This document shows, one piece after another, positions 14,780-23,944 of a stretch of 64,000 bases of DNA. Numbering within the stretch: position 1 is the stretch's first letter; each line of letters begins with the position of its first letter. This DNA is from Escherichia coli 042 (GTDB taxonomy: Bacteria; Pseudomonadota; Gammaproteobacteria; Enterobacterales; Enterobacteriaceae), in NCBI RefSeq assembly GCF_000027125.1, contig NC_017626.1; one strand, given 5' to 3'. The notes beneath the pieces were generated by a model. It had not been told where the DNA came from and did no database searches. It worked only from the letters and a program-made list of their open reading frames with translations. The position numbers and the translations under genes are program-made.

Positions 14780-16033
14780 ATGCTGGAACAAATGGGCATT
14801 GCCGCAAAGCAAGCCTCGTATAAATTAGCGCAACTCTCCAGCCGCGAAAAAAATCGTGTGCTGGAAAAAATCGCCGATGAACTGGAAGCACAAAGCGAAA
14901 TCATCCTCAACGCTAACGCCCAGGATGTTGCTGACGCGCGTGCCAATGGCCTTAGCGAAGCGATGCTTGACCGTCTGGCACTGACGCCCGCACGGCTGAA
15001 AGGCATTGCTGACGATGTGCGCCAGGTGTGTAACCTTGCCGATCCGGTGGGGCAGGTAATCGATGGCGGCGTACTGGACAGCGGCCTGCGTCTTGAGCGT
15101 CGTCGCGTACCGCTGGGCGTGATTGGCGTGATTTATGAAGCGCGGCCGAACGTGACGGTTGATGTCGCTTCGCTGTGCCTGAAAACGGGTAACGCGGTGG
15201 TCCTGCGTGGCGGTAAAGAAACCTGCCGCACTAACGCTGCAACGGTGGCGGTGATTCAGGACGCCCTGAAATCCTGCGGCTTACCGGCGGGTGCCGTGCA
15301 GGCGATTGATAATCCTGACCGTGCGCTGGTCAGTGAAATGCTGCGTATGGATAAATACATCGACATGCTGATCCCGCGTGGTGGCGCTGGCCTGCATAAA
15401 CTGTGCCGCGAACAGTCGACGATCCCGGTGATCACAGGTGGTATAGGCGTATGCCATATTTATGTTGATGAAAGTGCAGAGATCGCTGAAGCCCTGAAAG
15501 TAATCGTCAACGCGAAAACCCAGCGTCCGAGCACATGTAATACGGTTGAAACGTTGCTGGTGAATAAAAACATCGCCGATAGCTTCCTGCCCGCATTAAG
15601 CAAACAAATGGCGGAAAGCGGCGTGACATTACACGCAGATGCAGCTGCGCTGGCGCAGTTGCAGACAGGCCCCGCGAAGGTGGTGGCTGTGAAAGCGGAA
15701 GAGTATGACGATGAGTTTCTGTCATTAGATTTGAACGTCAAAATCGTCAGCGATCTTGACGATGCCATCACCCATATTCGTGAACACGGCACACAACACT
15801 CCGATGCGATCCTGACCCGCGATATGCGCAACGCCCAGCGTTTTGTTAACGAAGTGGATTCGTCCGCTGTTTACGTTAACGCCTCTACGCGTTTTACCGA
15901 CGGCGGCCAGTTTGGTCTGGGTGCGGAAGTGGCGGTAAGCACACAAAAACTCCACGCGCGTGGCCCAATGGGGCTGGAAGCACTGACCACTTACAAGTGG
16001 ATCGGCATTGGTGATTACACCATTCGTGCGTAA
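14780..16033 (+). CDS. proA: Gamma-glutamyl phosphate reductase
   Basis: 417 aa; aldehyde dehydrogenase-family sequence directly after proB. Confidence 0.95.
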
Positions 16034-16147
16034 ATAAAACCGGGTGATGCAAAAGTAGCCATTTGATTCACAAGGCCATTGACGCATCGCCCGGTTAGTT
16101 TTAACCTTGTCCACCGTGATTCACGTTCGTGAACATGTCCTTTCAGG

Positions 16148-16223
16148 GCCGATATAGCTCAGTTGGTAGAGCAGCGCATTCGTAATGCGAAGGTCGTAGG
16201 TTCGACTCCTATTATCGGCACCA
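16148..16223 (+). tRNA. thrW: tRNA-Thr (anticodon CGU)
   Basis: 76-nt cloverleaf GCCGATATAGCTCAGTTGGTAGAGCAGCGCATTCGTAATGCG...GGTTCGACTCCTATTATCGGCACCA; anticodon loop TTCGTAA; encoded CCA. Confidence 0.9.
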
Positions 16224-16224
16224 T

Positions 16225-16503
16225 TTAAATCAATAAGTTACACATAATTAGTACCTTCCTTTTTTTTGACTGGGACAAATTTGGGACCGATGGGTTCAGG
16301 ACTGAGTCTATTTGCCGTGCGTGTTCGGTAAGGTGATTAGGCGCGAGGTGAGCATATCGACGAACCATTTCGATAGACTCCCAGCCTCCCATTTCTGAAA
16401 ATGCAAGAAGAGAAACACTGGACTGAACCAGCCTGCTTGCCTTTGCTATCAAAGTACCTTGAAGGCCAGATGATTTCTGGCGATATTTACAGCGCTTCCG
16501 CAA
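16225..16503 (-). pseudogene. C-terminal remnant of a tyrosine recombinase (phage-type integrase), 3' end abutting thrW
   Basis: Translation [26 protein letters not shown] carries the integrase C-terminal box with the catalytic Tyr; at most about 90 codons are available before the next gene, so the catalytic core is missing. Confidence 0.55.
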
Positions 16504-16585
16504 TGAGTTTTTCTCTGTGCCGCCAGAGGCGTTCCCCGCTTTTTCAGCACCGCAATAATGTCGGCGGAATGCCAGTCCTGTTGCA

Positions 16586-17056
16586 TCATGCGGCCACCTC
16601 GCTGATAAATTTTACGCCGTCGGCGGTACGCAGCCAGCGTGGGGCTTTGAGTCCTTCCGTGAAATACCAGACCAGCTCACACAGCAGCCCGGTCAGGGTT
16701 TGCTCCATTTTTGGTTCCGCCGGACGTTCCAGCAGAAGCTGGAGTAGTGCGAGGCAGTATTCGCACAAGGAATCAGGTTCGGAAATAAAGTGCTCTGGTG
16801 TGGCGGGAAGGGTATCCACGGTCAGGCTTTCGGTAAGATGCGGTGGGATGGGGTCGTGTAGTGTGGGTTGCAGTAGCGCAAGAGCCGCGTGAAGCCGCCC
16901 GCAGAGCGCCAGTCGTAGCGCTGGATCGTCGGTTTCAATCAGGGTTTCGGCAAAGCGGGCGCAGTAGTCAGCAAGGACAGTGAAATCCGTGGTGGCATTG
17001 AAGGGGACGGTCAATAGATCGAGTAAATCGCTGTCAGTGGTGAGGATTGTAGCCAT
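16586..17056 (-). CDS. Hypothetical acidic, Leu/Ala/Pro-rich protein (156 aa) of unknown function
   Basis: Clean GC-rich ORF with plausible composition; the overlapping plus-strand ORF is Ser/Arg/Gly-rich and looks like a shadow frame. No motif recognised. Confidence 0.45.
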
Positions 17057-17402
17057 AGGGCAACCTCCGATAAGTGGGTGTTCAAGCCACCACCGGAGAG
17101 GCTAATCTCGCGGGTGGTGGAACCGGGCAGGGTTAGCCTTACCAGCCTTATCGGACACTGGCGCGTCTTGCGACGCCCCCGCCCGGCCCACCATTGAGAT
17201 GTAACCGTGCGAACAACACAAAAAAAGACGCTGGCGCGTCATGTGTCGCCGATAAGATTTCTTCAGGAGGCTAATCCCGACGCCTGATTTTGCAGGCGCG
17301 GGAGAAAGATACTGCGATTGGTCATGAGTGGCAAGGGCTACATCATGTTTACCGACATCTCACGCAAAAATACCCTGATTATTAATAGCGAAAATCAGTT
17401 TC

Positions 17403-20400
17403 TTATTTTGGCGGTAGCTTTTTGCGGTTCTTTGCCAACTGGAATCCTTCAGGTAACGGTTTGAATTTATCGCCGCCTTTAGGCCAGCGTTTTGCCCTGC
17501 TCTGAAATGCCCTTAACGAGTCGATATCCAGCGTTGCAGCGACCACAAAGTCATTATCACCGCCCTTCACACGAGCAATATCACGCATAAAGGGTTCTTT
17601 TGCCGGGGAACGTACGCGACTATCGCCGTATTTTCGGTTATTCACTAAAATAGTATAGGCATGAATATCCAGCGCTGCTGATTCAATCAACGATGCAAAC
17701 GTATCTAGATCTTTATTCCAGCTCAATACCATTAATGCATCGAGTGCGCCCTGAAAACGGATCCTCGCTTTACTATTCTGGAGTTCAGAGCAAATCATAA
17801 CGCCAAAATTGACGCCGTGATGAATATATACCGGCTTACGTTGTTTAACATTAAGTGTCGAATCCCAAGACTTACCATAAGTTGAAAATAATGCCTCATC
17901 TTCACCTACGGCGGGTTCCAGCTTGGGTTGCCATATTTTGACACTCGCTGGATAGCCGAGTCTGTTATCTGAAAGGACAAGTACGGCCTCACTCTTCAGT
18001 TGATTATCGTCTAAGTGGCGGTATTCTGTTCCCGCAATTAGACTGATACCCGCCGAACTCAAACGATCAGCAATACTGTTAACCCAGCGTAACGGGATTG
18101 AAAGCTCAGGGAATAAAACATAATCAGGTTTAGGAGATAGTTTCAATGTTGCATTAACCAGTTCAGAAATCCGCTGGTACCTTGAACGGGACAAGTTAGA
18201 TTTATTGCAGGCCATTTTAGCCCAGTCGTCCTCCTCTGTTTTAATGCTGGTTAGCGCAACGACAACTTTATGTTTCCTGTCTGTGCCAATATGAATGAAT
18301 TTCTTAGGCCGAGCTTTTTTTGTCGCTTCATCTGAGTCCTGCTCCGATGCTAGCAACGTCGGTTTGATCCATACTCCGCGTAATGCTTGAGTATATTTTG
18401 CCCAAATGGTGGACGGTCTCTCATCTGGTTTTTTGTCGGATGTGGAGGGTAATCCAACACATTCGGGGGCCAGTTCTGATATTTCAGCGGGTGTTAAAGG
18501 ACGTGTAGGGAAAATGTAAGGTAGGTAACTTTCGTTCTTACGATTTCCTTTAGCCACTTTTTCCAGTCGGGTATTCTTGGTTGATTTCAAAAATAGCTTA
18601 ATAACGTCAATATCAATAAGCGATGAGTCGCTCATTAATTTCAGTATTTTAACTTCTTTTTTACTATCACGCTGATTAACAAGTTTTTCTGCCGACTGAC
18701 TCTTTACGATCTGTTTATAAGGTTCCTTTGCTAAATCAGCTCGAGCTACCAATGGCGCTTTTAAATAAAAATCTGCTGAATCAAAGCGAAGATCCAGTAA
18801 ATCCTTTAGATTCGTCAGACTTTGTGAAATATGATTAAAAAATGTATCCGCAAGGCACTCTTCTTTCTTTGAACGTTTATCAAGAAATAATCTGTCAGGA
18901 CTGTAATATCGTGTCGCTGCATCAACAAATAGCCAGCTTAATGTGCCTTTTATACAGCGCCAAAGATCATTTACTGCTCGAGTTTTGCAACCATTTATAT
19001 TCACTTCCTTACCTGAAGTAATCACCGATGCCAACAGGTTGATGGATTCGTAAGCTTTAAGTACAATTTTTTCCGCGTGCTGCCATTCATTCATACTGAT
19101 AGCAAAGCCAAGCAGCCTTGGCAGATAACTAAAATGTGCAAATAGATTATCAGCCCTAAGAATATGGTTGTAGGCAAACTGATAAAACTCTTCCCGCTGT
19201 TCTTTCCATTCACTTGGAGGCAGATCTCGTGCCAGTGTTTCAACGTAGCGTAATTGCAGTGACCAGCCCAAACGACGAATGGTTAATCCATCCGCACGGC
19301 GCAGAGTATCGGCATTTTCACCTACACTACCGGCAGCGGAAAGGACTTTAGCTGCGGTGGAGTGTTCCAGTTGATCCGGTGAAGGCATCAAGCGGTGTTC
19401 ACTAGAAAGCTCGTAGATCTCCTTTTCGATACTGTCGAGCAGGTCTATTCCAGCCCTCCCTTGAAGCACGAAAAGTTTTTGCTTATCGGATTGTAACTGG
19501 ATGGTGGTCTTACCCTGGAAATGCTCGCCCTGCTGTATTTGCCATATTTGTTTTTGCTCGTTTTTCAAATAAACGCAATCATTGCCAAGCCTATCTTGCA
19601 GCAATAACATAAATTCGTGATTATTAGTAATTGTCCCTGTATCGCGTATTACAAGGAACATATCATCGACATAACGACCGTAGTGAATTGGTGATAGTTT
19701 TTCAATGACTAATTTATCCCAATGGTGTAGCAATATATTTGAAATGATCCGACTGGCTGTTAATCCAATGACCAGACCACCATTAATAACAGGTGTTTTG
19801 TACGCTATTTTCTTTCCAAATGCCGCTGCGCCGTCAGACCAGTGCTTTAAGAATACTGCTAACTGTGCAGTAAACGCTTTTTCATCCTCAGTCAGTTTTA
19901 TGTTTAGTGTGTTATAGAGATCATCAGAGGTTATAGCCAGTGGATCAATAAAATGATAGTAACTTTTTAAATCCAGTGAGGCGGCGATAATGTCACGATC
20001 TTTTTCCAACTCGTCACGTATAGCTTTTAAGCCATCACCACGCCATTTTTGGTAGGGCTGGAAGTAGGGGCTAAAAGAACCCACGGCACTGATATGGAAT
20101 GGATTATCCTGCTCATTGCTAAATAATTCATCATTACGAATACGCTTTAGCCGCGCGCCATAGCAACAGTTATCTAAGCTGGCATCAAATTTATGCCCGA
20201 CCATGTTAATCCATAGTGCAGAGATAATGTGACTATCAACCGGGAAGTCACCAATAATACGAAACTCTGGTATCAGATCAAAATTATTAAATAAATGGTC
20301 GGCTGCTCGTTTAGGATTAGAAAAGTGGACGTGTCCATTTTGGGATTCATGTTTTTTCTTTGTGGTTAATTTTTTCGGTAACAAACGAAATTTGCCAATC

Positions 20401-20612
20401 AACTTCTTATTGCTACTGAATCCATCTTCGCTCTGCAAAAGATCTAAGAGTTTTTGCAGGTTTTCAAGTAATTCCTGCTCATACTCGGCAAATTTGATAG
20501 CAACAGGAAATGTATTCTCAAAGAAGCTATCGGCTTTTGCTTTCCGGTAAGCGACCAGAAGGTCTTCAATCGTCAGATCATCCCAGCCAGTGAAAATTGC
20601 CTGATATGTCAT
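17403..20612 (-). CDS. Reverse transcriptase fused to a C-terminal nitrilase (carbon-nitrogen hydrolase) domain; candidate anti-phage RT (DRT type 1 / UG1-like)
   Basis: 1069 aa. RT motifs: LDLKSYYHFID (motif A-like, aa 213-223), GGLVIGLTASRIISNIL (motif B-like), HYGRYVDDMFLVI (motif C YVDD, aa 314-317, nt 19662-19673). C-terminal nitrilase triad candidates: FPE (E836), VKIWQPK (K892), GVMICSE (C941). AT-rich relative to flanks. Confidence 0.85.
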   Translation of the reverse strand: MTYQAIFTGWDDLTIEDLLVAYRKAKADSFFENTFPVAIKFAEYEQELLENLQKLLDLLQSEDGFSSNKKLIGKFRLLPKKLTTKKKHESQNGHVHFSNPKRAADHLFNNFDLIPEFRIIGDFPVDSHIISALWINMVGHKFDASLDNCCYGARLKRIRNDELFSNEQDNPFHISAVGSFSPYFQPYQKWRGDGLKAIRDELEKDRDIIAASLDLKSYYHFIDPLAITSDDLYNTLNIKLTEDEKAFTAQLAVFLKHWSDGAAAFGKKIAYKTPVINGGLVIGLTASRIISNILLHHWDKLVIEKLSPIHYGRYVDDMFLVIRDTGTITNNHEFMLLLQDRLGNDCVYLKNEQKQIWQIQQGEHFQGKTTIQLQSDKQKLFVLQGRAGIDLLDSIEKEIYELSSEHRLMPSPDQLEHSTAAKVLSAAGSVGENADTLRRADGLTIRRLGWSLQLRYVETLARDLPPSEWKEQREEFYQFAYNHILRADNLFAHFSYLPRLLGFAISMNEWQHAEKIVLKAYESINLLASVITSGKEVNINGCKTRAVNDLWRCIKGTLSWLFVDAATRYYSPDRLFLDKRSKKEECLADTFFNHISQSLTNLKDLLDLRFDSADFYLKAPLVARADLAKEPYKQIVKSQSAEKLVNQRDSKKEVKILKLMSDSSLIDIDVIKLFLKSTKNTRLEKVAKGNRKNESYLPYIFPTRPLTPAEISELAPECVGLPSTSDKKPDERPSTIWAKYTQALRGVWIKPTLLASEQDSDEATKKARPKKFIHIGTDRKHKVVVALTSIKTEEDDWAKMACNKSNLSRSRYQRISELVNATLKLSPKPDYVLFPELSIPLRWVNSIADRLSSAGISLIAGTEYRHLDDNQLKSEAVLVLSDNRLGYPASVKIWQPKLEPAVGEDEALFSTYGKSWDSTLNVKQRKPVYIHHGVNFGVMICSELQNSKARIRFQGALDALMVLSWNKDLDTFASLIESAALDIHAYTILVNNRKYGDSRVRSPAKEPFMRDIARVKGGDNDFVVAATLDIDSLRAFQSRAKRWPKGGDKFKPLPEGFQLAKNRKKLPPK

Positions 20613-20906
20613 GCGTTATCGTCCTTAGATTACAGTCTGTACAGAATTAGCCAGCCGTTTCATGCCCGAAGGGGGGCTCTTGACACCAGTAATCCATCAG
20701 TGAGGCTGGCAATAATTTTGATTTGTATCCATGTTACACGCTCCCCGCAACCAGTCCGAGCATATATTTGTCACATTTTTCCCGAAAGTGATTAAGTTTG
20801 AATTTTTTGTTTAATGTCGATTTTTAGTCGACAAAATGAGGAATAAGTAAACTATTTCTTGCTGTGGCGTATCCCTGAATCTACACTGGTTTAAATATTT
20901 GTACTA

Positions 20907-21710
20907 ATGTCTATTCAGAGGCGACAGTTGCCAAACTATCTAAACTGGCTGATGCAGCACACGCTACCCGGCCAGGTGCTGCTCCAGTCATGGCTTACCC
21001 GCAACGGCATAGATCGTAAGCTCTCTTATCTCTATGTGAAGAATGGCTGGCTCAGGCGGATCGCTCACGGCGTATACTGCCGGACGGGCCGTGAGCCGGA
21101 TTGGGTAGACGCGGTTTACTGCCTTCAAACACAGTGGGAAAAGCCTGTTCGGGTGGCGGGGCTAACCAGCCTTGCGCTTCAGGGCCATGCGCACTATACC
21201 GAACCGGGTAAGCCGCAGGTCTGGCTCGCGCTTCCGGCTTACGTTAAGCTGCCGGGATGGTTTGCTGCCTTCGAACAATCTGCAACATTTATCACGCTGT
21301 ATACATCGGGGCTTACCGTAGATGTAACGTCATTGACTACGGAACTGAAAATTGGCGACCGCCAGTTAGCAGGCAGTGCCCCGGAACTGGCCGCGTATGA
21401 GATCGCCTGCGGCGTTCCTTCGTTGATATCGTTCGAACATGCCGATGCTCTGTTTCAGGGGATGAATCTTCTCAGCCCGCGTAAATTGCAGGCGTTACTC
21501 TGCGCCAGTCATTCGGTTAAAACCAACCGGGTGATGCTTTACCTTGCCCGGCGTAATGGACACCCTTATTTTCAGTATCTTGATCAAAGCGGTATAGAAA
21601 CAGGTACGGGAAAGCGGCAAATCATACCTGGTGGCTGGCTGGAGCCGGATTATCAAATTACTGTTCCACGCGAATTTAAACCGGAAGGAGTCGAAGATGG
21701 ATCTGCGTGA
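20907..21710 (+). CDS. AbiEi-family transcriptional regulator / type IV antitoxin
   Basis: 267 aa; N-terminal AbiEi-type winged-helix signature (YVKNGWLRRIAHGVYCRTG); overlaps and precedes a nucleotidyltransferase gene. Confidence 0.7.
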   Translation: MSIQRRQLPNYLNWLMQHTLPGQVLLQSWLTRNGIDRKLSYLYVKNGWLRRIAHGVYCRTGREPDWVDAVYCLQTQWEKPVRVAGLTSLALQGHAHYTEPGKPQVWLALPAYVKLPGWFAAFEQSATFITLYTSGLTVDVTSLTTELKIGDRQLAGSAPELAAYEIACGVPSLISFEHADALFQGMNLLSPRKLQALLCASHSVKTNRVMLYLARRNGHPYFQYLDQSGIETGTGKRQIIPGGWLEPDYQITVPREFKPEGVEDGSA

Positions 21711-22617
21711 TAGCTATACCCGGCAGGTCAAACTGTTGATGGACGCTCTGCCGCATGTGGCGAAGGAGTCCGGTTTCGCATTAAAAGGCGGCACCGCAAT
21801 CAATTTGTTTGTGCAGGATTTTCCCCGTCTGTCGGTGGATATCGATCTGGCGTATAAGACTTTTGCGGATCGCGATACCGATTTGACGGCGATCAACGAC
21901 GCTTTGAAGAGAATTACTGCATCGCTGAACAGTAAACCGGGGATTACCGCGATTCGGCAGGAAAATAAAACGGATGAAAAGCGCATCATTGTGAATACGG
22001 CTGATGCCCAGATTAAGATCGAGGTTAGTCCGGTCTGGCGTGGGCTATTGTTGCCTCCGGCAGAAATGTCGGTGTGCGAACGTGTGGAAATGGAGTATGG
22101 CTTCACCACTATGAGTGTCGTTTCGCTGGCGGATCTTTATGGCGGTAAAATCTGCGCAGCGCTTGATCGTCAGCACCCGCGCGATCTGTTTGATGTGCTG
22201 AATATGCTGGAGAAACCGGGACTGATGCGGGAGATCTTTGACGGTTTTCTTTGTTATCTGGCAGGCCATCCCCGCCCCATTGCCGAGTTGCTGGCTCCAA
22301 ACTGGGATACAGAGCGGATCACGACGCTGTATGCTCAGGAATTTTCGGGGATGACTCAGCAGGAAACGTCGCTGGAATCGCTGCTGTCAGTAACGACTTT
22401 GCTGCCGCAGGCGTTGAAGTCACATCTTACGGATCTGGATCGCGAGTTCTTGCTCAGTTTTAAGCAAAACAGCCCTGACTGGTCGCGGTATCGCTATCCT
22501 GAAATTCAGCATCTTCCGGCTATTCGCTGGAAGCAACGTAATCTGGCGGTGCTGAAAGATAAAAATCCGGCGAAGTATGTGGCGGCGGTGAATAAGCTAG
22601 AGAGGGTGCTGGCGTAA
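21697..22617 (+). CDS. AbiEii/AbiGii-family nucleotidyltransferase toxin (DUF1814)
   Basis: Start set at ATG 21697 (GGAAGGAG Shine-Dalgarno, 14-nt overlap with the upstream gene); nucleotidyltransferase motif ALKGGTAINLF...RLSVDIDLA. Confidence 0.75.
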   Translation: MDLRDSYTRQVKLLMDALPHVAKESGFALKGGTAINLFVQDFPRLSVDIDLAYKTFADRDTDLTAINDALKRITASLNSKPGITAIRQENKTDEKRIIVNTADAQIKIEVSPVWRGLLLPPAEMSVCERVEMEYGFTTMSVVSLADLYGGKICAALDRQHPRDLFDVLNMLEKPGLMREIFDGFLCYLAGHPRPIAELLAPNWDTERITTLYAQEFSGMTQQETSLESLLSVTTLLPQALKSHLTDLDREFLLSFKQNSPDWSRYRYPEIQHLPAIRWKQRNLAVLKDKNPAKYVAAVNKLERVLA

Positions 22618-22682
22618 TCAATAGACCAGCATTAATCACAGAAGATTACCAATCAGACAGAAATGGTTAAATCGTCGAATTC

Positions 22683-22850
22683 ATAATTAATACTTTTTCT
22701 TACGCCGCTGAACAGCTTGAAAAGGATACATATTTTAAATATCAGTGAAGTGAACAGTTTATTGCCGTTATTAATAGAGATGGAGGAATAAATACGCGTA
22801 TTCTACTATTGCAACAAAAAAAACGATGATGATCAGTTTTCATAATGAAG
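22683..22850 (-). repeat. Decayed paralogous copy of the ykgO 3' end plus ykgR region (duplicate of sequence at 41307-41340 and 42020-42176)
   Basis: 22683-22720 aligns to the rpmJ2 3' end at about 75% identity with a 1-nt frameshift (tail ...AVQRRKKKY vs ...AVQGRKKKR); 22723-22850 is about 90% identical to 42030-42160 but with a roughly 28-nt deletion in the ykgR-like frame. Confidence 0.5.
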
Positions 22851-23059
22851 TAACCTGACAGATATAAAAATGTTGATTGAGGCTCAATGCCCGAATGAAG
22901 GTTGTCGAGGGAGCCAGGTGGTTTTTTCTTTTGGGTGATCTCCATTGCTGGATAGTCCCCTCTTTCTCGCTCAAAGCAGGGTGTACAGACCCTGGAATTG
23001 AACGCAGAGGGACTACCTGACACAATTTTGCACAGTGAAGAGTCGGTCGTTATTAACGT

Positions 23060-23944
23060 TCAGATTTTCAATGTATCAATGACCATCCGCAGGGCGGGGG
23101 AGACGTTGCGATGAGGGTAATAGAGAAACAATCCCTCCATTCGCAGGCTGTAACGCTGCAACACCCTGATAAGCTTACCGTGTTCTAAATCATCCGCGAC
23201 CAGTTCAACAGGAACATAGGCCAATCCGAGGCCCAGCCGGGCTGCTTCTGCTTCCATATAGCTGTCGGATAAGGCCCATTGCCCTTCAGGGCGATGAGTG
23301 ATTTTTTTATCATCCTGATTGAGTTCCCACTGGTATACGCTGCCGTCGGCAAACTGATAGGCGATACAGGGATGCGCCTTTAAATCCGCCGGGGTTTGCG
23401 GAAAACCATAGCGACGAAAATGTTCCGGAGTCCCCACAATTGCCATCTCCATATCGGGCGTGATGCGTACCGCGACCATACCCTGGCCGACTTCAGGCCC
23501 CAGGCGGACACCTGCATCGAATCTTTCCTCGATGATATCGACGAACCGGCTCTCATTTATCAGTTCAAGCCGGATATCAGGATATCGCTGTTTAAATACC
23601 GCCAGATTTGGCAGCAGGCATTTATCAATCGCGTGCTGGCTGGCATTGATACGCACCGTGCCGGAGGGCGTCTCTCGATAGTGCGCCAGCGTGGCAAGCC
23701 CAAGATCTAACATTTCAAATCCAGATGCCGTCTTCTGGTAGAGCTGCTCGCCTGCTTGTGTCAGCGACAGTTTACGCGTGGTGCGCACTAGCAGCTGGAC
23801 ACCCAGCCTTTCTTCAAGCTCGCGAACAGAACGGCTGACTCCTGACTGAGCAAGACCCAGCCGCTGAGCCGCTGCGGTAAAGCTGCCTTCTCGCACCACC
23901 TGCATAAACAGGTACAGCTCGTTGTAGTTCTCCCTTTTCGCCAT
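23060..23944 (-). CDS. LysR-family transcriptional regulator
   Basis: 294 aa; N-terminal HTH (FTAAAQRLGLAQSGVSRSVRELEERLGVQLLVRTTR) and LysR substrate-binding domain; divergent from the hydrolase gene. Confidence 0.85.
   Translation of the reverse strand: MAKRENYNELYLFMQVVREGSFTAAAQRLGLAQSGVSRSVRELEERLGVQLLVRTTRKLSLTQAGEQLYQKTASGFEMLDLGLATLAHYRETPSGTVRINASQHAIDKCLLPNLAVFKQRYPDIRLELINESRFVDIIEERFDAGVRLGPEVGQGMVAVRITPDMEMAIVGTPEHFRRYGFPQTPADLKAHPCIAYQFADGSVYQWELNQDDKKITHRPEGQWALSDSYMEAEAARLGLGLAYVPVELVADDLEHGKLIRVLQRYSLRMEGLFLYYPHRNVSPALRMVIDTLKI

What the first reader, a model, noticed from the sequence alone, without database searches (positions are those of the whole stretch)
17403..20612. 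1069-aa reverse transcriptase fused to a nitrilase domain: single-gene candidate anti-phage system (DRT type 1 / UG1-like)
Seen in sequence: the ORF carries RT motifs in order (LDLKSYYHFID; GGLVIGLTASRIISNIL; YVDD in HYGRYVDDMFLVI at nt 19662-19673) and, about 500 residues downstream, the nitrilase-superfamily triad in canonical context (VLFPELSIP, VKIWQPK, GVMICSE). It is markedly AT-rich versus its flanks and sits in a small island beside a tRNA and an integrase remnant. Established knowledge: RT-nitrilase fusions of the UG1 group were shown to give phage defence as DRT type 1 (Gao et al. 2020, Science), with both activities required. Inference: this gene is a defence RT of that class; both catalytic sites look intact. 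I do not know what it synthesises or what the nitrilase acts on.
Basis: partly seen in the sequence, partly recalled or inferred. Interest (0 to 1): 0.85.

Follow-up and report, generated by a model that had tools for sequence, protein, structure and literature searches.

The report
UG5-large RT–nitrilase defence gene in E. coli
The gene is real and intact, but it belongs to the already catalogued UG5-large family of reverse-transcriptase–nitrilase anti-phage proteins rather than to DRT type 1, so it is a new, untested member of a known kind.

Summary
A 1069-aa ORF lies at 17403-20612 (-), with every quoted motif at the stated coordinates, low GC, and a position in a 6.4-kb thrW island of E. 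coli.

The RT residues and the nitrilase E-K-E-C tetrad are invariant in 95 diverse homologs. The protein aligns full length (33% identity) to DRT11, a validated UG5-large without a membrane partner. No membrane partner or ncRNA is present here.

Close relatives sit at the end of hsdRMS-(Kiwa/other)-RT arrays. The window copy keeps a 60-nt kwaB-like tail and is fused to a former hsdR promoter region.

Verdict: new member of a known kind, modest interest.

The parts
17403..20612 (-). RT-nitrilase CDS, 1069 aa. RefSeq WP_001521910.1, annotated only as 'RNA-directed DNA polymerase'.
   Evidence: ORF. RefSeq annotation. PADLOC RT_UG5-nitrilase, 1034 bits, full length. Full-length alignment to DRT11.
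19383..20255 (-). RT (palm/fingers) core, about aa 120-410. Contains motif A D214, motif B-like G279-x-x-x-G283...N292, motif C Y314-V-D316-D317 (nt 19662-19673) and K377.
19401..19403 (-). Codon of S404, in the motif S-S-E-x-R-L-x-P. It is the only invariant Ser/Thr outside the catalytic motifs and is a candidate protein-priming residue (hypothesis).
   Evidence: S404 is 95/95, E405 92/95, R407 91/95 and P410 90/95. It is conserved in DRT11 and DRT5L. It lies just before the only low-confidence segment of the model, about aa 421-440. Homology to the DRT1 priming residue S402 is not established.
18318..19295 (-). Alpha-helical (repeat-like) middle domain, about aa 440-765.
17493..18305 (-). 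Nitrilase-superfamily (C-N hydrolase) domain, about aa 770-1040, with the tetrad E836, K897, E904, C941.
17442..17465 (-). C-terminal motif F-K1051-P-x-P-x-G-F. It corresponds to the DRT1 domain-swapped 'lid' over the nitrilase site (K1219...P1222-x-G1224-F1225).
   Evidence: K1051 is 95/95, P1052 93/95, P1054 94/95 and G1056 88/95. Alignment to 9YFD. K1219A abolishes DRT1 defence (PMC13275509).
20613..20673 (-). 5' leader, homologous to the 3' tail of the KwaB-like gene plus the RBS that precede the RT in Salmonella, Yersinia and Citrobacter. It is a remnant of an ancestral kwaB-RT junction.
   Evidence: 80% identity to L002 5938-6000.
20674..20703 (-). 30-nt junction of unknown origin between the cassette and the island backbone.
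   Evidence: No match in either comparator.
20704..20906 (.). Divergent intergenic region shared with E. coli AVS0662, where it lies between abiEi and hsdR. It is the presumed source of RT transcription, via the former hsdR promoter (inference).
   Evidence: 84% identity to L011. The match ends 57 nt before the position of the hsdR ATG. No strong sigma-70 consensus was found on this strand.
17336..17402 (-). 3' flank of the RT cassette. The backbone shared with AVS0662 starts at 17335.
   Evidence: blastn: window 17335->16100 matches L011 10244-11476 at 87% identity.

Best explanation
The gene encodes a UG5-large protein (class 3 UG/Abi). This is a single polypeptide with an N-terminal RT-like DNA polymerase, an alpha-helical repeat domain, a C-terminal nitrilase-superfamily hydrolase and a short conserved C-terminal lid. 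It is most likely a self-contained abortive-infection anti-phage system.

Proposed mechanism, inferred from the homologs DRT1, DRT5L and DRT11:
1. The RT domain makes short semirandom ssDNA without a template, primed from a hydroxyl side chain of the protein itself. The candidate here is the invariant S404.
2. The covalent DNA adducts drive oligomerisation through the nitrilase domains. They keep the enzyme in a primed but closed state, with the C-terminal K-x-x-P-x-G-F lid over a neighbouring active site.
3. A phage replication factor releases this state.
4. The nitrilase (E836/K897/E904/C941) then hydrolyses an unknown essential C-N compound, which stops growth before the phage completes its cycle.

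Shown here: family membership, domain folds, intact and invariant catalytic residues, absence of a membrane partner or ncRNA, the defence-island context and strong purifying selection.

Inferred: DNA synthesis mode, priming residue, oligomeric control, trigger, substrate, and expression from the former hsdR promoter.
For: Family and folds:
- PADLOC RT_UG5-nitrilase, E=0, 1034 bits, residues 1-1068.
- A profile of 95 homologs hits DRT1 (PDB 9YFD) at E=2.7e-28 in separate RT and nitrilase stretches, followed by many genuine RTs.
- AF2 model with pLDDT 90.3 and pTM 0.92.

Conserved residues:
- D214, Y314, D316, D317, K377, E836, K897, E904, C941 and K1051 are invariant in 95 sequences with 27-76% identity to the query.
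- C941 aligns to DRT1 C1116, YVDD to D324/D325, and the lid K1051 to K1219.

Links to characterised relatives:
- The protein aligns at 33% identity over its full length to S. meliloti DRT11 (L017). In DRT11 the RT DD->AA and nitrilase C->A mutants lose defence, and no membrane partner or ncRNA is needed (bioRxiv 10.64898/2025.12.16.694600).
- DRT5L, another UG5-large, makes covalent DNA template-free in vitro (PMC13275509).

Locus and selection:
- There is no TM segment in any flanking ORF and no PADLOC partner.
- Neighbours in relatives are other defence systems and vary from locus to locus.
- dN/dS <=0.06.
Against: - No experiment exists for this protein or its roughly 70%-identity clade.
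- Identity to every characterised relative is low: 33% to DRT11, 25-29% to DRT5L, and only local similarity to DRT1.
- Pfam-A does not recognise either domain.
- The priming residue cannot be aligned to DRT1 S402. The DRT1 authors report that S402 is not conserved in other class 3 RTs.
- In 6 of 8 sampled close relatives the gene is the tightly spaced last gene of hsdRMS-X-RT arrays. The window copy was cut out of such an array, so it may depend on lost partners or be poorly expressed.
- No strong sigma-70 consensus lies upstream.
- A UG5 RT-nitrilase in E. coli E101 did need a membrane partner (PMC9122126, PMC9226505).
Confidence: 0.75

Rival explanations
1. It is a member of DRT type 1 (UG1).
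For: - The domain order is the same.
- The best solved-structure match is DRT1 9YFD.
- The C-terminal lid motif is shared.
- UG1 nitrilases nest within the UG5 radiation (bioRxiv 10.64898/2025.12.16.694600).
Against: - The Drt1a HMM scores only 89 bits over residues 151-409, against 1034 bits full length for RT_UG5-nitrilase.
- The length is 1069 aa, against 1200-1300 aa for UG1.
- hhalign to DRT1 covers only the RT core.
- The full-length alignment is to the UG5-large proteins DRT11 and DRT5L.
Confidence: 0.03
2. It is an orphaned component. In its native arrangement the RT works with, or is expressed from, a Type I R-M / Kiwa-type array. After the deletion seen in the window it is silent or non-protective.
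For: - Six of 8 close-relative contexts are hsdRMS-(KwaAB | PDC-M59AB | AAA_13 ATPase)-RT, with 5-56-nt gaps or 4-nt overlaps, and involve two different hsdR families.
- The window keeps a 60-nt kwaB-like tail.
- No strong promoter consensus lies upstream.
- At least one E. coli copy is disrupted by an IS element and one is split.
Against: - The genes between hsdS and the RT differ from locus to locus. This argues for a hotspot rather than an obligate partnership.
- A 49%-identity relative stands alone.
- DRT11 and DRT1 protect as single genes (literature).
- The deletion joined the RT to the former hsdR upstream region, which is likely to carry a promoter.
- About 258 genomes keep the ORF intact, although they are nearly clonal.
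Confidence: 0.15
3. The RT-nitrilase and the divergent AbiEi/AbiEii pair form one composite system.
For: They are adjacent and divergent and share a 295-nt intergenic region. The S. meliloti DRT11 locus also has an AbiEii-like neighbour (bioRxiv 10.64898/2025.12.16.694600).
Against: - The same AbiE pair occurs with hsdRMS and no RT in E. coli AVS0662.
- None of the 8 sampled relatives with sufficient flanks (the ninth homolog, P0130, was found only on <5-kb contigs) has AbiE next to the RT.
- AbiE is a known autonomous type IV TA system, with matches of 265 and 385 bits.
Confidence: 0.03
4. It is a templated RT (retron, group II intron, DGR or class 2 DRT) that uses a nearby ncRNA, for instance the C4/isrK RNAs just downstream.
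For: Structured RNAs lie 90-290 nt downstream on the same strand.
Against: - Those RNAs are P4/P1-type immunity RNAs. They belong to the island backbone, which is also present in AVS0662 without the RT, and they are absent from all five related loci scanned with Rfam.
- Retron and Drt2-4 NCBIfam scores are far below their cut-offs: 32 against 235 bits, and similar for the others.
- There is no retron, group II or DGR RNA hit in 15900-23200.
- In the relatives sampled the upstream sequence is coding up to 5-12 nt before the ATG or overlaps it by 4 nt; one (L013) has a 55-nt gap.
- Class 3 enzymes synthesise DNA without a template (PMC13275509).
Confidence: 0.02

Closest known systems
DRT11: UG5-large RT-nitrilase of Sinorhizobium meliloti RMO17 (WP_040120558.1; bioRxiv 10.64898/2025.12.16.694600)
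   Same: - Same family model and the same RT-linker-nitrilase architecture.
- No membrane partner and no ncRNA.
- Full-length alignment at 33% identity, with YVDD, the nitrilase Cys/Lys/Glu, S404/R407 and the C-terminal FKPxPxGF all conserved.
- Located in a variable region near an AbiEii-like gene.
   Different: - DRT11 is 1005 aa, against 1069 aa here.
- Only 33% identical.
- An alphaproteobacterial megaplasmid, against an E. coli chromosomal thrW island.
- The window's clade is typically attached to Type I R-M arrays.
- DRT11 has experimental proof of defence; this gene has none.
DRT5L / Rst_RT-nitrilase-Tm type UG5-large (PADLOC PDLC02995; PMC13275509; Rousset et al. 2022, PMC9122126)
   Same: UG5-large. 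It hits the same family HMM at 718 bits. The catalytic residues and the SS-x-x-R motif are shared. DRT5L was shown to make covalent, template-free DNA.
   Different: - 25-29% identity.
- The window protein scores only 188 bits, and only partially, on the PDLC02995 model.
- The E. coli E101 system has, and requires, a downstream membrane protein and sits in the P4 psu-int hotspot. The window has no membrane ORF and no psu.
DRT type 1 (UG1; Klebsiella pneumoniae; PDB 9YFD; PMC13275509; Gao et al. 2020)
   Same: - Class 3 UG/Abi with RT + alpha-helical repeat + nitrilase.
- Catalytic Asp pair, nitrilase Cys and the C-terminal lid K..P.GF all align.
- Likely the same logic: protein-primed DNA adducts that gate a nitrilase, leading to abortive infection.
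   Different: - A different UG group.
- 160 residues shorter.
- The middle domain and the priming region cannot be aligned.
- The DRT1 priming residue S402 is reported as not conserved outside UG1.
UG5-small plus separate nitrilase (PADLOC RT_UG5_small / RTasNitrilase)
   Same: Homologous RT (133 bits) and nitrilase (147 bits).
   Different: There the nitrilase is a separate ORF. Here the two are fused.

Membership tests
UG5-large (class 3 UG/Abi RT; PADLOC RT_UG5-nitrilase) | End-to-end match to the family profile, better than to any other RT group | tested here: met
   PDLC03780: E=0, 1034 bits, residues 1-1068 on profile positions 9-901 of 907. The next models are other UG5 models, and Drt1a scores only 89 bits.
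UG5-large (class 3 UG/Abi RT; PADLOC RT_UG5-nitrilase) | RT domain with catalytic motif A Asp and Y-x-D-D | tested here: met
UG5-large (class 3 UG/Abi RT; PADLOC RT_UG5-nitrilase) | C-terminal fused C-N hydrolase (nitrilase) domain with a Glu-Lys-Glu-Cys centre | tested here: met
UG5-large (class 3 UG/Abi RT; PADLOC RT_UG5-nitrilase) | Large protein (about 1000 aa or more) with an extension between the RT and the hydrolase | tested here: met
   1069 aa, with an all-helical domain at about aa 440-765.
UG5-large (class 3 UG/Abi RT; PADLOC RT_UG5-nitrilase) | Associated membrane protein (optional: 31 of 299 members in Mestre et al. 2022) | tested here: not met
   No 19-residue window with KD>=1.6 in any ORF >=30 aa flanking the gene within the island. 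No PADLOC hit for the neighbours. This feature is not required for membership; DRT11 also lacks it.
UG5-large (class 3 UG/Abi RT; PADLOC RT_UG5-nitrilase) | Anti-phage activity that depends on both catalytic sites | not testable with these tools
   Shown only for the relatives DRT11 (bioRxiv 10.64898/2025.12.16.694600) and DRT1 (PMC13275509).
UG5-large (class 3 UG/Abi RT; PADLOC RT_UG5-nitrilase) | [quoted passage not shown] | not testable with these tools
   Shown in vitro for DRT1, DRT5L and DRT5S (PMC13275509). Here there is only the absence of any conserved ncRNA.
DRT type 1 (UG1) | Full-length match to the Drt1a profile; length 1200-1300 aa | tested here: not met
   Drt1a scores 89 bits on residues 151-409 and 34 bits on 940-1045 only. 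The protein is 1069 aa.
DRT type 1 (UG1) | Priming serine S402 in its conserved context | tested here: inconclusive
   hhalign stops at query residue 341. An invariant S404 exists at a similar distance from YVDD, but homology is not shown.
DRT type 1 (UG1) | Conserved C-terminal lid residues (K1219, P1222, G1224, F1225) | tested here: met
   They align with K1051, P1054, G1056 and F1057.
Rst_RT-nitrilase-Tm (Rousset et al. 2022) | RT-nitrilase plus an essential adjacent membrane gene in the P4 psu-int hotspot | tested here: not met
   No membrane ORF and no psu gene. There is only a P4-like immunity RNA remnant and an integrase remnant. The PDLC02995 match is partial, at 188 bits.
Retron | Retron-type RT above the family cut-off, plus an adjacent msr/msd ncRNA | tested here: not met
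   NF038233 scores 32 bits against a cut-off of 235. There is no retron RNA family hit in 15900-23200.

The most novel reading that the evidence does not exclude
This strongly conserved UG5-large subclade lacks a membrane partner and shows about 70% amino-acid identity across Enterobacterales, Vibrionales, Alteromonadales and Oceanospirillales. It may be functionally coupled to Type I R-M-linked defence arrays, for example as a back-up that senses phage anti-restriction or replication factors. It may prime DNA synthesis from the invariant S404 in the S-S-E-x-R-L-x-P motif. In that case the E. coli thrW copy would be a naturally uncoupled version, suitable for finding the still unknown nitrilase substrate in a native E. 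coli background.
Probability: 0.15. Interest if true: 0.6.

Novelty: new member of a known kind. Interest (0 to 1): 0.3.

Why it matters
Class 3 RT-nitrilase defences are the least understood of the defence RTs. The nitrilase substrate and the activated state are unknown, even after the 2026 DRT1 structure.

This gene is a native E. coli representative, present in about 5% of complete genomes. It has no partner genes, an obvious set of mutants to test (D316/D317, C941, S404, K1051) and natural comparators: an empty site, a variant of the same slot that carries an R-M system, and full hsdRMS-Kiwa-RT arrays in Salmonella, Yersinia and Citrobacter. That makes it a convenient model.

It does not reveal a new kind of system. 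For annotation, it shows that Pfam-based screens miss the whole family, and that RefSeq's 'RNA-directed DNA polymerase' hides a defence gene.

Tried and rejected
- Pfam-A scan: no RT or CN_hydrolase hit. This is a sensitivity failure of Pfam, not evidence against the domains.
- NCBIfam: only sub-threshold RT hits.
- Search for a membrane partner by hydropathy in all flanking ORFs, and by PADLOC on the neighbours: none found.
- Search for an ncRNA partner. Rfam found C4, isrK and a1b1 RNAs downstream. They belong to the P4-like backbone, which is also present without the RT, and they are absent from relatives, so they were rejected as a template.
- Attempt to align the invariant S404 to the DRT1 priming residue S402 by hhalign. 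The alignment ends at residue 341, so the result is inconclusive.
- Search for att direct repeats at the island ends: none of 14 nt or more. Borders were set instead by comparison with an empty site.
- Literature search for the protein accession WP_001521910: no paper. The supplements of Mestre et al. 2022 are not held.
- AbiE as a partner: rejected.
- Retron, group II intron or DGR identity: rejected.
Full report
**1. Observation**

The window carries a 1069-codon ORF at 17403..20612 on the minus strand. This includes YVDD at nt 19662-19673 and the nitrilase Cys at residue 941.

The gene has 41.9% GC, against 55% for proBA on one side and 52.7% for the abiE pair on the other. tRNA-Thr(CGT) lies at 16148-16223 and is followed by an integrase C-terminal remnant.

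**2. Where it is**

The window is Escherichia coli chromosome: phoE-proBA-thrW, 100% identical to many RefSeq genomes. The gene occurs in 260 of 5426 complete E. coli genomes, all but one at >=99% identity. RefSeq calls it only 'RNA-directed DNA polymerase'.

Comparison with a strain whose thrW site lacks this island delimits it as window 16242-22606. In RT-sense order (minus strand), with the divergently transcribed AbiEi/AbiEii pair (PADLOC 265 and 385 bits) lying upstream of the RT on the plus strand, the island contains:
- the RT-nitrilase gene;
- a P4/P1-type immunity RNA cluster (c4-a1b1, isrK, C4), which RefSeq annotates as an 'ash family' ORF;
- a 156-aa hypothetical protein;
- an HTH remnant;
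- the integrase remnant next to thrW.

**3. What the protein is**

PADLOC's best model is RT_UG5-nitrilase: E=0, 1034 bits, residues 1-1068. The DRT1 model Drt1a matches only the RT core at 89 bits. Pfam-A finds neither RVT_1 nor CN_hydrolase, and NCBIfam gives only sub-threshold RT hits. I therefore sought independent evidence.

- **Family size.** A scan of 1.84 billion cluster representatives gives 2013 homologs at E<=1e-3. Close homologs (about 70% identity) occur in Salmonella, Yersinia, Citrobacter, Vibrio, Marinobacter, Idiomarina and others.
- **Conserved residues.** In an alignment of 95 diverse full-length members (27-76% identity), the invariant residues are D214, R313, Y314, D316, D317 and K377 in the RT, and E836, K897, E904 and C941 in the C-terminal domain. 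The latter four form a canonical nitrilase Glu-Lys-Glu-Cys tetrad.
- **Solved structures by sequence.** A profile of that alignment searched against PDB sequences hits DRT1 (9YFD) best, at E=2.7e-28, in two stretches covering the RT and the nitrilase. Drt3a, retron, Drt2, G2L4 and group II intron RTs follow.
- **Predicted structure.** The AlphaFold2 model is confident (pLDDT 90.3, pTM 0.92).

The architecture is therefore RT + alpha-helical repeat + nitrilase, as in DRT1 (PMC13275509).

**4. Relation to characterised systems**

tblastn against plasmids hits S. meliloti RMO17 pSymA at 109,347-112,340. This is the locus published as DRT11, a UG5-large without a membrane partner. In DRT11 the RT (DD->AA) and nitrilase (C->A) mutants lose phage protection, and a 179-bp upstream deletion has no effect (bioRxiv 10.64898/2025.12.16.694600). 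The two proteins align end to end at 33% identity, with all catalytic residues conserved.

The 'DRT5L' protein of the 2026 DRT1 paper is also UG5-large (PADLOC PDLC02995, 2039 bits; family model, 718 bits). It is 25-29% identical to the window protein. That paper shows that DRT1, DRT5L and DRT5S make DNA without a template and covalently attached to the protein. For DRT1 it further shows:
- S402 primes synthesis;
- the DNA adducts drive tetramer and filament assembly;
- a domain-swapped C-terminal lid (K1219, A1223) closes the nitrilase site;
- the T4 Dda helicase is part of the trigger;
- the nitrilase substrate is unknown (PMC13275509).

In the window protein, C941 aligns with DRT1 C1116 and YVDD aligns with D324/D325. 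The nearly invariant C-terminal F-K1051-P-x-P-x-G-F aligns with the DRT1 lid K1219-x-x-P-x-G-F.

**5. Single gene or not**

No ORF of >=30 aa flanking the gene within the island has a membrane-like segment. Neither downstream ORF hits any PADLOC model. The C4/isrK RNAs belong to the island backbone. That backbone is also present in E. coli AVS0662, which lacks the RT, and the RNAs are absent from relatives. AbiE occurs without the RT in AVS0662 and is not next to the RT in any sampled relative. So the RT-nitrilase is a separate module.

The genomic contexts of close relatives are nevertheless not random. In Salmonella, Yersinia, Citrobacter, Marinobacter, Alloalcanivorax and a Pleionea-like plasmid contig, the gene is the last member of an array hsdR-hsdM-hsdS-X-RT. 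X is KwaA/KwaB-like, PDC-M59A/B or an AAA_13 ATPase, with gaps of 5-56 nt or a 4-nt overlap. In Vibrio an ATPase overlaps the RT start. A 49%-identity relative stands alone.

In the window, the 60 nt upstream of the ATG (20613-20673) are homologous to the tail of the Salmonella kwaB-like gene. From 20704 onward the sequence is the abiEi/hsdR divergent intergenic region of AVS0662, ending 57 nt before the position of the hsdR ATG. The backbone resumes at 17335.

The RT cassette (17336-20703) thus occupies a variable slot that holds hsdRMS in AVS0662. It looks as if it was cut out of an hsdRMS-kwaAB-RT array, leaving it behind the former hsdR promoter region. That last point is an inference. The simple promoter scan finds no strong consensus there.

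**6. Selection and integrity**

All orthologs examined are intact. Against Salmonella and Citrobacter, dN is 0.15-0.16 and dS is saturated (>=2.8), which gives dN/dS <=0.06. Among E. coli copies, one is interrupted by an IS5-family element and one appears split.

**7. Mechanism proposed**

By homology, the RT domain would synthesise short semirandom ssDNA primed from the protein itself. The adducts would assemble and hold the nitrilase in a primed but closed oligomer. Phage infection would release it, and the nitrilase would destroy an essential metabolite, giving abortive infection.

A specific and testable prediction concerns the priming residue. S404, in S-S-E-x-R-L-x-P, is the only invariant Ser/Thr outside the catalytic motifs. 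It is conserved in DRT11 and DRT5L, and it lies just before the only low-confidence segment of the model. Its homology to DRT1 S402 could not be shown.

**8. Verdict**

The functional idea (a defence RT-nitrilase) is well supported, but the family label is wrong: the protein is UG5-large, not UG1/DRT1.

The family is already catalogued (Mestre et al. 2022, PMC9226505; PADLOC). Relatives have been validated genetically and biochemically, so this is a new member of a known kind. Residual interest lies in three things: the Type I R-M linkage of this clade, the candidate priming serine, and the value of a native E. coli model for the unsolved question of the nitrilase substrate.

Noticed in passing
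window 17110-17312 (-): A P4/P1-type immunity RNA cluster lies immediately downstream of the RT: C4 antisense RNA at 17110-17198 (71 bits, gathering score 45), isrK at 17221-17299 (69 bits, gathering score 50), and the c4-a1b1 targets at 17260-17312 (43.8 bits, just under the gathering score of 46.7). RefSeq annotates only a 57-aa 'ash family protein' here. A promoter-like TTGCCA-17-TATCTT at 17334-17306 sits at the exact start of the backbone.
   Followed up: partly
window 16242-22606: This is the 6.4-kb thrW island, delimited against a strain lacking it (L009). It carries two defence modules, the RT-nitrilase and AbiEi/AbiEii, plus a degraded satellite-like backbone: an integrase C-terminal remnant, an HTH remnant, a 156-aa hypothetical protein and the immunity RNAs. 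No att direct repeat of 14 nt or more was found.
   Followed up: partly
window 17336-20703, compared with L011 4154-10243 (E. coli AVS0662): The same thrW island backbone carries hsdR-hsdM-hsdS in AVS0662 where the window has the RT cassette. This is a variable defence slot, bounded by the abiEi/hsdR promoter region on one side and the P4-like immunity region on the other.
   Followed up: yes
L002, L006, L008, L007, L012, L013 (relatives): In the ~70%-identity clade the RT-nitrilase is recurrently the last gene of the array Type I R-M (two different hsdR families) - variable defence gene(s) (Kiwa-like KwaAB, PDC-M59AB, AAA_13 ATPase) - RT. Gaps are 5-56 nt or the genes overlap by 4 nt. One array lies in a Tn7-like element (Marinobacter) and one on a RepC/MobA plasmid-like contig.
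   Followed up: partly
window 20907-22617 (+): An AbiEi antitoxin (PADLOC 265 bits) and an AbiEii nucleotidyltransferase toxin (385 bits) overlap by 14 nt. The pair is 93% identical in nucleotide sequence to the pair in AVS0662. The validated S. meliloti DRT11 locus also has an AbiEii-like neighbour. This is probably a defence-island coincidence.
   Followed up: partly
E. coli records NZ_AP022287.1 (H54), NZ_CP049196.1 (H53), CP088862.1 and NZ_CP146678.1 (H55, H56): One E. coli copy of the gene is interrupted by an IS5-like ISKpn26 element. One copy has a 1-nt shorter match and is annotated as two CDSs. Two records labelled as plasmids (35 kb and 64 kb) carry a copy encoding a protein 100% identical, and may be misassigned chromosomal fragments.
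   Followed up: no
whole protein (window 17403-20612): Pfam-A does not detect either the RT or the CN_hydrolase domain in this family, even at E<=10. The precomputed Pfam column is empty for 119 of the 120 listed homologs (one carries PF00078). Pfam-based defence or RT screens will therefore miss this family.
   Followed up: yes
L002 9836-9966 (+): An EFASI sRNA (Rfam RF02957, 112 bits) lies downstream of the Salmonella ortholog, between the RT and the integrase.
   Followed up: no
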